Shown: positions 556-54,416 of the stretch, one piece after another | Position numbering within the stretch: the first letter of the stretch is position 1 | Layout: each line of letters starts with the position of its first letter | Assembly: GCA_012837425.1 (NCBI GenBank) | Contig: DURE01000045.1 | Span: 4,432 to 68,431 of the forward strand | Source: Clostridiales bacterium | GTDB lineage: Bacteria; Bacillota; Clostridia; Oscillospirales; CAG-272 | Length of the DNA: 64,000 nt | Direction of reading: 5' to 3' | Made by a program: the position numbers and the translations under genes | Notes under the pieces: generated by a model | Databases searched by the model: none | What the model saw: only the letters and a program-made list of their open reading frames with translations | What the model was told of the DNA's origin: nothing

Positions 556-660
556 GCGGTATGCGGGGCCCGCGCTGCTCTATTAGCTTATAAAGTTCAG
601 GGGGTATGGGGGCAGAGCCCACATGAAAAAAAGCGGGTGCGGAGCAGAGTCCCGCATGAG
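556..660. repeat. Dispersed GC-rich palindromic intergenic repeat, copy A
   Basis: GGGGGCAGAGCCC ... GCGGAGCAGAGTCCCGC modules resemble the central part of copy D (20759-20877). Confidence 0.5.
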
Positions 661-689
661 AAGCCCCTGCCCGGGCCCGGGCAGGGGCT
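661..689. terminator. GC-rich hairpin between convergent transcription units
   Basis: AAGCCCCTGCCCGG-GCC-CGGGCAGGGGCTTT, followed by a T-run on the + strand. It abuts the stop of the minus-strand small ORF. Confidence 0.5.
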
Positions 690-842
690 TTAGTGTTTTT
701 TGGCTTTTACTTTTTTGGTTTTTGCCTTGCCCTGAATTTCGGGGACCGGTGGAACCTCGTTTTTAGGAATACTCATTCTGTGGTCGCCCTCTGTTCCGTG
801 AGGTTCTTTGGGGTCGGGTCTGCGCATTCCCTGCTTTGCCAT
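690..842 (-). CDS. Small basic hypothetical protein (50 aa, MAKQGMRRPDPKEPHGTEG...KAKKH)
   Basis: ATG preceded by GAGG about 10 nt upstream, with a hairpin directly after the stop. I do not recognise a family. Confidence 0.35.
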   Translation of the reverse strand: MAKQGMRRPDPKEPHGTEGDHRMSIPKNEVPPVPEIQGKAKTKKVKAKKH

Positions 843-1007
843 AAAATTCAACCTCGCCGTTTGTGACGGCAAAAAAAATATAGATTCGCGCTTGTGCTAT
901 ACATCAGCTACCTTTTGTTGTGGCGCAATAACAGTTTTCCTTGATTTGAAAATATTATACATCCTGCCGCTTTTTTTGGGTTTGGGTCGAAAATAATTAA
1001 AAAACCA

Positions 1008-1036
1008 TTGTCACAAATCCGCGAATTTACTATAAT
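1008..1036 (+). promoter_or_regulatory. Sigma-70-type promoter, TTGTCA-17-TATAAT
   Basis: Near-consensus -35 (1008-1013) and consensus -10 (1031-1036) with a 17-nt spacer, about 100 nt upstream of the 1136 ORF. Confidence 0.55.
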
Positions 1037-1135
1037 GATAATGAGTGTCCGGGAAACCTGCAGAAATAGTAATCATATCAGAGGACGGGACGAGGAGCAA
1101 TCGGTACATATCTTAAAGAAAAGGAGTAATGCGCA

Positions 1136-1333
1136 ATGTCAAGAAGATTTGATTTTGATGTAAGGGCAGAAGCCGACGGCTGCAAGCAGGTAAGCCCGCT
1201 CGGAGGTTGCGGCAGGCAGTCAGGCTGCGGCAGGCGTAGGCGTGAGAGCTGCGCCTGTGAGTTCGCGCTTGGCCTGGTGCTCGGCATAGGTCTGGGCAAC
1301 AGGGGAGGCCGCCGCCGCAAGGACTGCTGCTGA
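1136..1333 (+). CDS. Cys/Arg-rich small protein (65 aa), unrecognised
   Basis: AAGGAG lies 9 nt upstream of the ATG. Codons are mostly G/C-ending, as in neighbouring genes. It has 8 Cys, an LGGCG motif, a GLVLGIGLG hydrophobic stretch and a tail ending in CC. Confidence 0.45.
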   Translation: MSRRFDFDVRAEADGCKQVSPLGGCGRQSGCGRRRRESCACEFALGLVLGIGLGNRGGRRRKDCC

Positions 1334-1463
1334 CAGACTAGAATAGCAAAAATCCGGTCAGATACGATAAGTTAAAACATCGTTATAGAACCACGTGAAC
1401 CAAAAGACGGGTTGCAGGGAGCCTGAAATCCGGCACACCATCCTATGGCAATAAAACCCGCTT

Positions 1464-1510
1464 GGAGCCGACGCAAATCAGGTTGATTTGCGTCGGCTCC
1501 TTTGCCGTTT
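1464..1510 (+). terminator. Intrinsic terminator-like hairpin
   Basis: Perfect 17-bp stem, GGAGCCGACGCAAATCA-GGT-TGATTTGCGTCGGCTCC, followed by TTTGCCGTTT. Confidence 0.6.
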
Positions 1511-1553
1511 GGAGCGCTCGGGTGAAAAATCCCGATGGCGGCCGCAAAAAAGA

Positions 1554-1582
1554 TTGACATACCCGGCCGGTTGTGATATACT
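1554..1582 (+). promoter_or_regulatory. Sigma-70-type promoter, TTGACA-17-TATACT, for the SCIFF operon
   Basis: Consensus -35 and a near-consensus -10 with a 17-nt spacer, about 40 nt upstream of the SCIFF ATG. Confidence 0.6.
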
Positions 1583-1619
1583 TACATTAAGGAGAATACT
1601 ACCAGAGAGGTTTTTTGAG

Positions 1620-1778
1620 ATGAAAAGAATCAAGACAGTAGAGACCCGTAACCTGAAAGAGAGCGCCTTGCTCGGCGGCTGCGGCGAATGCCAGACCTCC
1701 TGCCAGTCAGCCTGCAAAACCTCGTGTGGCGTTGCCAACCAAACCTGCGAGCAGAAGTCGATAAAAAAAAGCAGGTAA
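1620..1778 (+). CDS. scfA: SCIFF (six-cysteines-in-forty-five) ranthipeptide precursor
   Basis: MKRIKTVETRNLKESALLGGCGECQTSCQSACKTSCGVANQTCEQK matches the hallmark SCIFF core GGCGECQTSCQSACKTSC. It is the internal ATG of track ORF 1488..1778. Confidence 0.9.
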   Translation: MKRIKTVETRNLKESALLGGCGECQTSCQSACKTSCGVANQTCEQKSIKKSR

Positions 1779-1936: not shown

Positions 1937-3322
1937 ATGGTACATCAGTATAAGCTTGGCGGATATAATATCGTGCTCGACATAAATTCGGGGTCGGTCC
2001 ACTCGGTTGACGATGTCGCCTACGACATGATAGCCCTCTATCCTGAATACCCGCGGGAAAAAATCATTGCCGACCTGCTGGGAAAATACCGCGGGCGCCC
2101 CGACGTTAATGAGGCCGAGCTGCGGGAGTGTTATTCGGACATACAATCGCTAATTGACGCCAAAAAGCTGTATTCCCCCGATGAATTTGAAGAGCTTGCC
2201 GCATTACCCGGACCGCGCCCGGGCACGGTAAAGGCGCTCTGCCTGCATGTGGCGCACACCTGCAACCTCGGCTGCGAATACTGCTTTGCGGGTCAGGGCA
2301 GATACCGGGGCGAGCGCGAGGTTATGAGCTTTGAAACCGGGCGTGCGGCAATTGATTTTCTTGTTGAGCATTCCGGCCGGAGAAGGAACCTTGAGGTCGA
2401 CTTTTTCGGCGGCGAGCCGCTTATGTGCTGGGAGACTGTAAAGAGAATTGTCGCCTATGCCCGGGGGCGCGAGCGGGAGTGCGGCAAAAATTTCCGCTTT
2501 ACCTTAACCACAAACGGCCTGCTTATTGATGATGAAGTTATTGAGTTTTGCAACCGCGAGATGCATAACGTGGTGCTCAGCCTTGACGGCCGGCGCGAGG
2601 TGAACGACAGGTTCCGCAGGACCCTCTCGGGGCAGGGCAGCTATGACATAATACTGCCGAAATTCAAAAGGTTTGTCAAGGCCCGCGGGGACAGGAGCTA
2701 CTACATCCGCGGCACATACACGCACCTCAATACTGACTTTACAGAGGACATCCTGCACATGGCTGACCTCGGATTTGACCAGCTGAGCATGGAGCCGGTG
2801 GTTTGCCCGCCTTCGGAGCCCTATGCCCTGACCGAGGATGACCTGCCGGTTTTGCTTGAGCAGTACGAAAGGCTGGCCTCAATAATGCTTGAGCGCAAAC
2901 GGCAGGGCCGGGGATTTACCTTTTATCACTATATTATCGACATTGAGCACGGCCCCTGCGTGCACAAGCGCATATCCGGCTGCGGCTCGGGGACCGAGTA
3001 TCTGGCGGTGACGCCTTCCGGCGAGCTTTATCCCTGCCACCAGTTTGTCGGTCACCCTCAGTTCCGCCTCGGCAGCCTTGGTGAGGGTCTGACGAATACA
3101 GAGCTTCAGGCTCGCTTTGGAAGTTGCAACATCTACACCCGCCCCGAGTGCCGGGAGTGCTGGGCGAGATTTTACTGCGCCGGCGGCTGCGCCGCAAACG
3201 CCTACCACGCCACCGGCCGCATTGACGGGATTTACGAATACGGCTGCCGGCTGCTCAAAAAGCGGATTGAGTGTGCCGTAATGCTAAAGGTTGCCGAGTA
3301 CGAGGACGAAAACATGGGTTAG
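1937..3322 (+). CDS. scfB: SCIFF radical-SAM/SPASM thioether-forming maturase
   Basis: N-terminus MVHQYKLGGYNIVLD, radical-SAM CNLGCEYC motif and a Cys-rich SPASM C-terminus. It sits immediately downstream of scfA, with GGGGAGA before the ATG. Confidence 0.9.
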   Translation: MVHQYKLGGYNIVLDINSGSVHSVDDVAYDMIALYPEYPREKIIADLLGKYRGRPDVNEAELRECYSDIQSLIDAKKLYSPDEFEELAALPGPRPGTVKALCLHVAHTCNLGCEYCFAGQGRYRGEREVMSFETGRAAIDFLVEHSGRRRNLEVDFFGGEPLMCWETVKRIVAYARGRERECGKNFRFTLTTNGLLIDDEVIEFCNREMHNVVLSLDGRREVNDRFRRTLSGQGSYDIILPKFKRFVKARGDRSYYIRGTYTHLNTDFTEDILHMADLGFDQLSMEPVVCPPSEPYALTEDDLPVLLEQYERLASIMLERKRQGRGFTFYHYIIDIEHGPCVHKRISGCGSGTEYLAVTPSGELYPCHQFVGHPQFRLGSLGEGLTNTELQARFGSCNIYTRPECRECWARFYCAGGCAANAYHATGRIDGIYEYGCRLLKKRIECAVMLKVAEYEDENMG

Positions 3323-7657: not shown

Positions 7658-7732
7658 GCCCCCATAGTTAAATGGATATAATAAGCCCCTCCTAAGGGCT
7701 AGTTATGAGTTCGATTCTCGTTGGGGGTGCCA
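7658..7732 (+). tRNA. tRNA-Arg (anticodon CCU)
   Basis: Cloverleaf with acceptor GCCCCCA/TGGGGGT, anticodon loop CUCCUAA, T-arm GAGTTCGATTCTC and an encoded CCA. Confidence 0.9.
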
Positions 7733-54163: not shown

Positions 54164-54416
54164 AAAAAAAGCCGTCTTTTTCCCTGTCAGAAAAGGGACG
54201 AAAGACGACGACTTCCGCGGTGCCACCCATATTAGCCGGCAGGCTGCCGACTCACTCTTGCAGACTAACGCTCTGCTCACGGGCGGTTCTACTTGCCACA
54301 GGGCTTTCTTCCGCCGGCTCCGAGTGTTATTCGCCCCCCGCCGTGCCGCGTCGCACCGTCCCGCGGCTCTCTGAAATCTAAGCTTGAGGGGTTACTTCTC
54401 TCATCAGCGCCATTAT
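54164..54416 (-). promoter_or_regulatory. T-box riboswitch leader (probable Asn AAC specifier) with terminator
   Basis: On the minus strand there is a GAUGAGAGAAGUA GA-motif and a specifier-loop-like GAAUAACACUCGGAGC. The T-box sequence GGGUGGCACCGCG is at 54228-54216. A terminator hairpin plus U7 ends at 54164. Confidence 0.75.

What the first reader, a model, noticed from the sequence alone, without database searches (positions are those of the whole stretch)
1008..1510. Orphan Cys/Arg-rich 65-aa ORF in its own promoter-to-terminator unit directly upstream of SCIFF
A near-consensus promoter (TTGTCA-17-TATAAT) is followed by a leader of roughly 100 nt and then AAGGAG 9 nt before an ATG.

The ORF is MSRRFDFDVRAEADGCKQVSPLGGCGRQSGCGRRRRESCACEFALGLVLGIGLGNRGGRRRKDCC. 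Its codons are mostly G/C-ending, like real genes in this window. A roughly 130-nt untranslated tail then ends in a perfect 17-bp-stem hairpin.

The peptide has 8 Cys. It carries L-G-G-C-G at residues 22-26, almost the same distance from the N-terminus as LLGGCGEC in the adjacent SCIFF precursor (residues 17-24). After that it diverges into an Arg-rich, glycine-zipper-like hydrophobic segment and a C-terminal CC.

I do not recognise this family. It could be a second substrate or partner of the neighbouring radical-SAM maturase, a small membrane peptide, or a spurious ORF inside a structured RNA.
Basis: partly seen in the sequence, partly recalled or inferred. Interest (0 to 1): 0.65.

Follow-up and report, generated by a model that had tools for sequence, protein, structure and literature searches.

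The report
Orphan cationic Cys-rich microprotein gene beside SCIFF
The 65-codon frame is a real, separately transcribed gene for a small arginine- and cysteine-rich protein found only in one narrow clade of uncultured anaerobic-digester Clostridia; it is not a relative of the neighbouring SCIFF peptide, and its function is still only guessed.

Summary
There is a near-consensus promoter (1008-1036), a 93-nt leader, AAGGAG 9 nt before the ATG at 1136, a 65-aa ORF (1136-1333), a 128-nt tail and a 17-bp hairpin (1462-1501). The peptide has 7 Cys, not 8.

It is a protein-coding gene, not an RNA element:
- Four close lineages and one distant one (L007, 78 aa) keep only this frame open.
- Indels are in frame.
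- dN/dS is 0.18-0.29, the lowest of the six frames.
- Promoter, SD and CDS are conserved, while the leader and 3' tail are not.
- No Rfam match and no conserved RNA structure was found.

Eight metatranscriptomes hold identical contigs confined to 1028-1457. DNA metagenomes cover the whole region.

The family is tiny. Profile searches of 1.8 and 5.8 billion proteins found only its own clade. All five carriers form one clade in a ScfB tree, and 78 other scfAB loci lack it, so linkage to SCIFF cannot be told apart from inherited synteny. The LGGCG resemblance to SCIFF is not conserved (hhalign probability 0.3%).

What is conserved is a short GxxxGxxxG hydrophobic segment between two Arg clusters, with CxC before it and Cys at the C-terminus. 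It is too weak for a canonical TM helix. Best guess, at low confidence: a membrane-surface or self-associating cationic microprotein.

The parts
1008..1036 (+). Sigma-A-type promoter TTGTCA-17-TATAAT. It is followed by a conserved second -10-like hexamer plus GAG (GATAATGAG, 1037-1045).
   Evidence: One search gives 11 of 12 matches. The promoter is 88-93% identical in three close lineages. The distant L007 keeps the same architecture (TTGGCA-17-TATAAT-AGTAATGAG).
1043..1135 (+). 5' leader of about 93 nt. It is poorly conserved apart from GTACATAT...GAAAAGGAG just before the start codon.
   Evidence: Identity to L084/L088 is about 0.5, with 25-nt indels. RNAalifold predicts 0 conserved pairs. 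There is no Rfam match.
1121..1126 (+). Shine-Dalgarno sequence AAGGAG, 9 nt before the ATG.
   Evidence: GAAAAGGAG is invariant in all five lineages.
1136..1333 (+). CDS of a 65-aa cationic Cys-rich microprotein with net charge +7, 12 Arg, 12 Gly and 7 Cys. Residues 1-23 form a conserved N-terminal module. Residues 24-31 are a variable linker. Residues 32-65 form a basic-hydrophobic-basic module: GRRRR-x2-CxCEF-ALGLVLGIGLG-N-RGGRRRKD-CC.
   Evidence: Homologues share 75-85% identity, and L007 is a distant homologue. It is the only frame open in all five lineages. dN/dS is 0.18-0.29, with Fisher p from 5e-5 to 1.4e-3. RNA contigs cover it in 8 metatranscriptomes.
1334..1461 (+). 3' untranslated tail. 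Neither its sequence nor its length is conserved.
   Evidence: The tail is 128 nt here, 137, 98 and 96 nt in the close lineages, and 19 nt in L007. Identity is 0.5-0.57.
1462..1510 (+). Intrinsic terminator: a 17-bp stem, a GGT loop, then TTTGCCGTTT.
   Evidence: Seen. Every lineage has a hairpin plus T-run at this position, each with a different sequence. Seven of eight RNA runs have no contig over 1458-1598. One run (X26) reads through.

Best explanation
Shown: 1136-1333 is a genuine protein-coding gene under purifying selection. It is transcribed as its own unit from the sigma-A-type promoter at 1008-1036 to the terminator at 1462-1501. It belongs to a previously undescribed family of 63-78 aa, restricted to one clade of uncultured Clostridia from anaerobic digesters, landfills and similar habitats. 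My estimate that it is a real coding gene is about 0.9.

Inferred, with low confidence: the product is a strongly cationic microprotein without a stable globular fold. Its working part is the C-terminal module. This is a short GxxxGxxxG (glycine-zipper) hydrophobic segment of 12-13 residues between two clusters of 3-5 Arg/Lys, with a CxC pair just before it and one or two Cys at the C-terminus.

Both flanks are strongly positive and the hydrophobic stretch is too short and too Gly-rich for a standard membrane-spanning helix. I therefore propose that the Arg clusters hold the peptide on the anionic cytoplasmic face of the membrane. The glycine-zipper segment would dip into the leaflet and/or zip copies together. 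That arrangement would bring the CxC and C-terminal Cys groups to the same side, where they could bind a metal or form redox-sensitive links.

Its position next to scfA/scfB is inherited synteny. A functional tie to SCIFF is neither shown nor excluded.
For: Coding signature:
- The frame is open in all five lineages, and each of the other five frames is broken in at least one lineage.
- Indels of 3 and 6 nt keep the frame.
- Third-position changes dominate, for example 4/7/16 by codon position.
- dN/dS is 0.18-0.29 and is the lowest of the six frames in every pair.
- The excess of synonymous changes gives p from 5e-5 to 1.4e-3.
- The ATG, the SD and the promoter are conserved, while the leader and 3' tail are about 50% identical with large indels.
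- The L081 ORF sequence is identical in three independent assemblies.

Transcription:
- Contigs 100% identical to the window, from 8 metatranscriptomes, lie only within 1028-1457.
- None of the 8 runs covers 535-1027.
- scfA/scfB contigs begin at 1599-1623.
- DNA metagenomes cover 850-1650 without a gap.

Conserved module:
- Invariant across all five lineages are G32 R33 R35 R36 C39 C41 F43 L47 L49 G50 G52 L53 G58 R59 R60 C65.
- The G/A46-G50-G54 spacing is kept.
- Each flank carries 3-5 positive charges.

Lack of a globular fold: AlphaFold gives mean pLDDT 43.5, with only a 5-residue helix inside the hydrophobic segment.
Against: - Translation is inferred from evolution alone. There is no Ribo-seq or proteomic evidence for this uncultured organism.
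- Only five lineages exist, effectively three independent contrasts, so the dN/dS support is real but thin.
- The antisense frame -2 shares the wobble position and also scores low (0.22-0.49). It carries stops in L084 and L007.
- Membrane association is weak on paper. Kyte-Doolittle 19-residue means are 1.18-1.6. Position-independent insertion sums for 19-mers are +4.7 to +7.5 kcal/mol.
- Arg/Gly-rich tails (RGGRRRK; GRRRPGRGPGRG in L007) would suit nucleic-acid binding equally well.
- Contig-based RNA evidence carries no strand information and may contain DNA. One RNA contig starts at 1028, 15 nt before the expected start site.
- DNA assemblies also break at the hairpin, so part of the RNA gap after 1457 could be an assembly artefact.
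Confidence: 0.4

Rival explanations
1. It is a ribosomally made precursor peptide, a second lineage-specific client of ScfB or a substrate of another maturase. Its conserved Cys next to Asp/Glu (ESCACEF / GDCCDF, KDCC) would be cross-linked as in ranthipeptides.
For: - The gene lies directly upstream of scfA/scfB in all five carriers, even though the genes further upstream differ between the window clade and L007.
- SCIFF-type enzymes form Cys-to-Thr/Asp/Asn thioethers at beta/gamma carbons, and the related QhpD links Cys to Asp/Glu (PMC8326336).
- The peptide has a conserved N-terminal module, a variable linker and a Cys-bearing C-terminal module.
- One RNA contig reads through from the ORF into scfA.
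Against: - There is no detectable homology to SCIFF (Pfam; hhalign probability 0.3%).
- The LGGCG look-alike is not conserved.
- The N-terminus differs in L007.
- All five lineages keep the ORF's own promoter and terminator, and scfA keeps its own promoter.
- 78 other scfAB loci do without it.
- The five carriers are one clade, so the adjacency is a single inherited event.
- 12 Arg and a hydrophobic zipper are unlike known ranthipeptide cores.
Confidence: 0.12
2. It is a soluble cationic Cys-rich protein that binds nucleic acid and/or metal (protamine- or RGG-like, or metallothionein-like). The hydrophobic segment would serve only for self-association.
For: - The net charge is +6 to +8, with RRRR, RGGRRRK and GRRRPGRGPGRG tracts.
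- The hydrophobic segment is below the usual TM thresholds.
- The model is predicted disordered.
- CxC and CC are thiophilic metal motifs (my own knowledge).
Against: - The best-conserved part is the F-x-L-x-L-x-L-G-x-G-L-G segment, not the Arg tracts. The Arg tracts vary in number and position.
- There is no match to any nucleic-acid-binding or metal-binding family.
Confidence: 0.18
3. It is a toxic or antimicrobial cationic peptide: a type I toxin-like membrane-damaging peptide, or a leader-cleaved bacteriocin whose leader ends at the conserved L22-G23.
For: - It is small and strongly cationic, with a GxxxG-rich hydrophobic segment as in two-peptide bacteriocins and pore formers (my own knowledge).
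- It has a long leader and its own promoter-to-terminator unit.
- L22-G23 is conserved in the four close lineages.
Against: - No promoter-like site was found on the opposite strand for an antitoxin RNA.
- The hydrophobic part is C-terminal and short.
- The GG pair is not conserved, and L007 has no LG at that place.
- No C39-peptidase ABC exporter or immunity gene appears among the called neighbours.
- It is expressed at levels like scfAB in eight communities.
Confidence: 0.1
4. The peptide itself has no function. Either the transcript is a non-coding or cis-regulatory RNA, or the ORF is an Arg/Cys-sensing leader peptide that tunes read-through into scfA.
For: - The ORF is rich in Arg and Cys codons and ends before a terminator that precedes a Cys-rich peptide gene.
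- One RNA contig crosses the terminator.
- The 470-nt transcript folds somewhat better than shuffles (z = -2.47).
Against: - There is amino-acid-level constraint, including on the Gly/Leu/Phe positions.
- The stop-to-terminator distance varies from 19 to 137 nt.
- There are no conserved pairs in the leader, and the covariation term in the CDS is unfavourable, at +1.8.
- The opposite strand folds just as well (z = -2.45).
- There is no Rfam match.
- scfA keeps its own strongly conserved promoter.
Confidence: 0.06

Closest known systems
SCIFF precursor ScfA (Pfam PF13165; ranthipeptide precursors)
   Same: Both are small Cys-rich peptides of Clostridia, each with its own sigma-A-type promoter, and the two genes are adjacent. 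In this one genome the ORF carries GGCG at a similar distance from the N-terminus.
   Different: - There is no sequence homology.
- The GGCGEC...C-x3-C pattern is absent.
- The ORF is Arg-rich, has a hydrophobic segment and is present in one clade only. SCIFF is near-universal in Clostridia (PMC8326336; 79 of 80 loci).
YjcZ-family tiny sporulation proteins (NCBIfam TIGR01732)
   Same: Both are tiny proteins of Firmicutes with a Gly/Cys-rich N-terminal part followed by an F-A-L-initiated hydrophobic segment. This resemblance comes from my own recollection and from an earlier scan note.
   Different: - No NCBIfam hit was found at E up to 10.
- The hydrophobic segment here is much shorter and Gly-rich.
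- Arg clusters flank it on both sides.
- The promoter looks sigma-A-type, and the gene is expressed in bulk community RNA.
Glycine-zipper membrane peptides and proteins (GxxxGxxxG motif; Pfam Gly-zipper families such as PF13488, PF13441 and PF05433)
   Same: The (G/A)xxxGxxxG spacing is conserved within a hydrophobic stretch.
   Different: - No Pfam glycine-zipper family is matched.
- The segment is 12-13 residues, not a full TM helix.
- It is cytoplasmic-type, with no signal peptide or lipobox.
Small Cys-pair metal-handling membrane proteins such as MerF/MerE (analogy only)
   Same: Both have vicinal or near-vicinal Cys pairs placed next to hydrophobic segments and next to a basic C-terminal tail. 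This is from my own knowledge.
   Different: There is no homology. The ORF has one weak hydrophobic segment instead of two TM helices. No mer or other metal-resistance genes lie nearby.

Membership tests
SCIFF (PF13165 / ScfA) | Match to the SCIFF profile, with the invariant GGCGECQTSCQSACKTSCG core | tested here: not met
   No Pfam hit was found at E up to 10 for the four clade members. hhalign of the 5-sequence family against 15 SCIFFs gives probability 0.3%, with only 4 aligned columns.
SCIFF (PF13165 / ScfA) | The GGCG motif is conserved among the ORF's own homologues | tested here: not met
   The homologues read LGGCG, LG-CG, LG--SS and LG--GS.
RiPP precursor served by the adjacent radical-SAM enzyme | Co-occurrence with the maturase beyond what shared ancestry explains | tested here: inconclusive
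   5 of 5 carriers are adjacent to scfAB. However, they form a single clade with 95/94 support, and 78 other scfAB loci lack the ORF.
RiPP precursor served by the adjacent radical-SAM enzyme | Post-translational cross-links on the peptide | not testable with these tools
   This needs co-expression and mass spectrometry.
YjcZ family sporulation protein (TIGR01732) | Match to the NCBIfam model | tested here: not met
   There are no NCBIfam hits at E up to 10.
Pfam glycine-zipper families | Match to a Gly-zipper profile | tested here: not met
   There are no Pfam hits at E up to 10.
Glycine-zipper motif (motif level, not a family) | (small)xxxGxxxG spacing conserved inside a hydrophobic stretch | tested here: met
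   G/A46, G50 and G54 are kept in all five lineages.
Single-pass membrane microprotein | A hydrophobic segment long and hydrophobic enough for a TM helix, with a charge asymmetry | tested here: not met
   The best 19-residue Kyte-Doolittle mean is 1.18-1.6. Insertion sums are +4.7 to +7.5 kcal/mol, and both flanks carry 3-5 positive charges.
Known non-coding RNA family (Rfam 15) | Match at or above the gathering score | tested here: not met
   Nothing reaches the gathering score in the window apart from a T-box and a tRNA elsewhere. The sub-threshold matches in 800-2000 are the bare hairpin (19 bits against a threshold of 100) and IS009 (16 bits against a threshold of 117).
Type I toxin-antitoxin | An antisense RNA gene overlapping the toxin mRNA | tested here: inconclusive
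   No promoter-like site was found on the minus strand in 400-2000. The contig-based RNA data carry no strand information.
Double-glycine-leader bacteriocin | A conserved GG/GA/GS cleavage motif and a nearby C39-peptidase ABC exporter | tested here: not met
   GG is present only in the window sequence. The neighbours are a hydrogenase, SCIFF, ScfB and a decarboxylase-family protein.

The most novel reading that the evidence does not exclude
The microprotein is a lineage-specific working partner of the SCIFF system. One version is a second ScfB client whose conserved Cys-Asp/Glu neighbours (CxC-E/D-F, D-CC) are thioether-linked. The other is a membrane-surface factor needed to export or sense the SCIFF-derived peptide. 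Either version would give the first genetic handle on what accessory functions SCIFF needs.
Probability: 0.1. Interest if true: 0.7.

Novelty: new member of a known kind. Interest (0 to 1): 0.35.

Why it matters
Small proteins are routinely missed or left as 'hypothetical'. This one has unusually clean comparative and expression evidence, and no relative among billions of predicted proteins.

If the guessed mechanism is right, it adds a new sequence type to the bacterial microproteins that work at the membrane surface: two Arg clusters clamping a glycine zipper, with paired cysteines.

Its fixed place beside scfA/scfB gives a cheap experiment, co-expression plus mass spectrometry. That experiment could either extend the substrate range of SCIFF maturases or close the question.

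Otherwise it is an ordinary lineage-specific orphan gene of an uncultured digester bacterium.

Tried and rejected
The window's own genome and its GTDB relatives could therefore not be scanned for paralogues or uncalled homologues.
- Homologue hunts beyond the clade found nothing real:
  - The profile against 1.84 billion representatives returned only P0002, P0004 and a 1520-aa repetitive product (P0005). I treat P0005 as a low-complexity artefact.
  - The alignment search of 5.8 billion clusters found only the four clade members.
  - The L007 protein alone found nothing.
  - The metagenome pattern scan found only a known contig.
  - Exact look-ups of L007's ORF and SCIFF found no record.
- The single PDB hit, 8erw, is a designed repeat protein with no stretch passing threshold. 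I rejected it as compositional.
- AlphaFold gave no usable model (pLDDT 43.5), so no fold search was run.
- The antisense 80-aa ORF (1078-1320, frame -2) was considered because it shares the wobble position. I rejected it because it has stops in L084 and L007, a higher dN/dS, and no conserved start or SD.
- Laying reads of L007-lineage runs to gain diversity gave only one variant, Cys23Ser at low depth, and no RNA coverage of the L007 ORF.
- There is no paralogue in the 64-kb window.

Full report
**Observation.**
- TTGTCA-17-TATAAT lies at 1008-1036 (11 of 12 matches).
- AAGGAG lies at 1121-1126, nine bases before the ATG at 1136.
- A 65-codon ORF runs to the TGA at 1331-1333.
- A 128-nt tail follows, then a perfect 17-bp hairpin at 1462-1501 followed by TTTGCCGTTT.
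- The next unit is the SCIFF precursor (1620-1778) with its own TTGACA-17-TATACT promoter at 1554-1582, then ScfB (1937-3322).
- The only slip is the cysteine count, which is 7 and not 8.
- A promoter-like match alone is not significant here: 2 were found against 1.3 expected. The case rests on conservation.

**Is it a gene?** A search of 5.8 billion protein clusters found three homologues of 63-64 aa at 75-85% identity, two of them annotated only as 'hypothetical protein' in MAGs.

All three lie in the same place: end of a HydABC-type [FeFe]-hydrogenase operon, a gap, the ORF, SCIFF, ScfB, then an OKR_DC_1-family gene.

In a four-way DNA alignment of the whole intergenic region, conservation is uneven:

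| Segment | Identity to the window |
|---|---|
| Promoter | 88-93% |
| SD plus CDS | 81-85% |
| Leader | about 50% in L084/L088, 74% in L081 |
| 3' tail | 51-57% |

The leader and the 3' tail also carry large indels.

The two indels inside the ORF are 3 and 6 nt.

Substitutions fall mainly on third positions, for example 4/7/16 by codon position. Nei-Gojobori dN/dS is 0.18-0.32 between the divergent lineages.

Repeating the calculation in all six frames gives the lowest value for the proposed frame in every pair (0.18-0.29). The antisense frame that shares its wobble position comes next (0.22-0.49), and the other four frames are near or above 1.

The synonymous excess is significant in single pairs (Fisher p from 5e-5 to 1.4e-3).

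The L081 contig has low coverage, but its ORF sequence is identical in two further independent assemblies.

**A more distant homologue.** I searched six-frame translations of 91 fetched loci with an HMM of the four proteins. This found one further hit, in L007, directly upstream of that genome's scfA (E = 0.001).

It is a 78-aa ORF that was not in the protein database. It has:
- the same promoter architecture (TTGGCA-17-TATAAT followed by AGTAATGAG, against GATAATGAG here);
- the same GAAAAGGAG Shine-Dalgarno sequence;
- its own terminator.

The proposed frame is the only one of six that is open in all five lineages.

The genes further upstream in L007 are different: a 443-aa ORF and a 141-aa ORF instead of the hydrogenase.

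**Is it expressed?** Eight metatranscriptome runs from several studies of anaerobic digesters, a biogas fermenter and wastewater contain contigs 100% identical to the window. All of these contigs lie within 1028-1457.
- None of the eight runs covers 535-1027.
- Seven of eight have nothing over 1458-1598.
- scfA/scfB contigs begin at 1599-1623, as expected from the SCIFF promoter.
- One run (X26) has a contig from 1213 to 1703, meaning read-through or DNA carry-over.

As a control, DNA metagenomes cover 850-1650 continuously.

Three caveats apply:
- The RNA data are assembler contigs, with no strand information and poor depth estimates.
- One contig starts at 1028, slightly before the expected start site near 1043.
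- DNA assemblies also tend to break at the hairpin.

**Is it an RNA element instead?**
- Rfam gives nothing at the gathering threshold. Below threshold it gives only the bare hairpin and a 16-bit IS009 match.
- The 470-nt transcript folds with z = -2.47, but the opposite strand gives z = -2.45.
- RNAalifold finds no conserved pair in the leader.
- In the CDS it finds a structure with an unfavourable covariation term of +1.8.
- The stop-to-terminator distance varies from 19 to 137 nt. That argues against a ribosome-coupled attenuator.

**Relation to SCIFF.**
The homologues read LG-CG, LG--SS and LG--GS.
- Pfam's SCIFF model does not match.
- Profile-profile comparison with 15 SCIFF sequences aligns four columns at probability 0.3%.
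- Among the 80 best ScfB loci, only L001 (the same record as L088) and L007 carry the ORF.
- In a maximum-likelihood ScfB tree, the five carriers form one clade (95/94 support) with no non-carrier inside it.

So the gene arose once and has stayed beside scfAB since. This is compatible with a functional link but is not evidence for one.

What is known of SCIFF comes from the review PMC8326336. SCIFFs are ranthipeptides carrying beta/gamma-carbon thioethers made by SPASM radical-SAM enzymes, they are widespread in Clostridia, and a quorum-sensing role has been reported.

**What the protein looks like.** No Pfam, NCBIfam, PHROG or PDB relative exists. Exhaustive HMMER over 1.84 billion representatives finds only its own clade.

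AlphaFold gives pLDDT 43.5, with one 5-residue helix in the hydrophobic segment.

The five-way alignment shows three parts:
- a conserved N-terminal module (M-S-x-x-x...D-F-D/N...G-C...G);
- a variable linker (residues 24-31);
- an invariant-rich C-terminal module: G-R-x-R-R-x2-C-x-C-E/D-F-x-L/I-x-L-x-L-G-x-G-L-G, then G-R-R and a terminal Cys.

Within the hydrophobic stretch the (G/A)46-G50-G54 spacing is a glycine zipper. Net charge is +6 to +8.

The stretch is only 12-13 residues and is Gly-rich:
- The best 19-residue Kyte-Doolittle mean is 1.18-1.6.
- A position-independent insertion-energy sum is +4.7 to +7.5 kcal/mol (the scale values were recalled from Hessa et al. 2005).
- Both flanks carry 3-5 positive charges.

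A standard bitopic helix is therefore not predicted.

**Most likely mechanism (inference).** I read the product as a cationic microprotein held on an anionic surface by its Arg clusters. The most plausible surface is the cytoplasmic face of the membrane.

The glycine-zipper segment would dip into the leaflet and/or zip copies together. The CxC and C-terminal Cys groups would then sit on the same side, where they could do thiol or metal chemistry.

I put this at about 0.4. The rivals are:
- a soluble nucleic-acid- or metal-binding protein (0.18);
- a RiPP precursor or ScfB client (0.12);
- a toxin or bacteriocin-like peptide (0.1);
- an RNA or leader-peptide device (0.06).

That the gene is real and coding I put at about 0.9.

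**Limits.**
- There are five lineages only.
- There is no strand-specific or ribosome-level data.
- Because the L007 copy had not been called as a gene, other uncalled copies may exist.

Noticed in passing
window 690-842 (- strand): A divergently oriented 50-aa basic ORF (MAKQGMRRPDPKEPHGTEGDHRMSIPKNEVPPVPEIQGKAKTKKVKAKKH) follows GAGG and has a terminator-like hairpin after it. It is conserved in L081/L082 and, as a 59-aa form, in the distant L007, but it is absent from L084/L088. It matches no Pfam, NCBIfam or PHROG family. No RNA contig covers it in 8 metatranscriptomes.
   Followed up: partly
window 876-891 and 921-962: Two non-coding blocks (AAATATAGATTCGCGC and GCGCAATAACAGTTTTCCTTGATTTGAAAATATTATACAT) are almost invariant in the four close lineages, more so than the CDS. 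The second holds a TATAAT on the minus strand. In L084/L088, which lack the basic ORF, the minus strand continues through a hairpin to a GC-stem plus T-run terminator. That suggests a minus-strand small RNA or 5' UTR of about 125 nt, or else an upstream regulatory site for the microprotein promoter. There is no Rfam match.
   Followed up: partly
window 1037-1045; L007 3115-3123: A second -10-like hexamer plus GAG directly follows the -10 box (TATAAT-GATAAT-GAG here, TATAAT-AGTAAT-GAG in L007). It is conserved even though the rest of the leader is not. GTACATAT just upstream of the SD is also conserved. These may be a promoter-proximal pause or operator element.
   Followed up: no
window 1213-1703: One metatranscriptome (X26) has a single contig crossing the terminator and the scfA promoter. 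This means either partial read-through from the microprotein gene into scfA or DNA carry-over.
   Followed up: no
L081 3400-4100: In the low-coverage ENA contig (coverage 1.57), no SCIFF gene was called and ScfB was called at only 305 aa. These look like frameshifts from sequencing errors rather than real decay.
   Followed up: no
L007 3297: One landfill metagenome carries T>A, which changes Cys23 to Ser in the L007 homologue. Cys23 is the position aligned with the otherwise invariant C16. The supporting contig has depth 3.9.
   Followed up: no
window 54191-54416 (-) and 7658-7729 (+): A T-box leader (105 bits) and a tRNA are the only Rfam matches at gathering score in the window.
   Followed up: no
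window 556-691: GC-rich hairpin modules lie between the hydrogenase terminator and the basic ORF, including a 14-bp stem at 660-691 that also serves as a terminator-like site.
   Followed up: no
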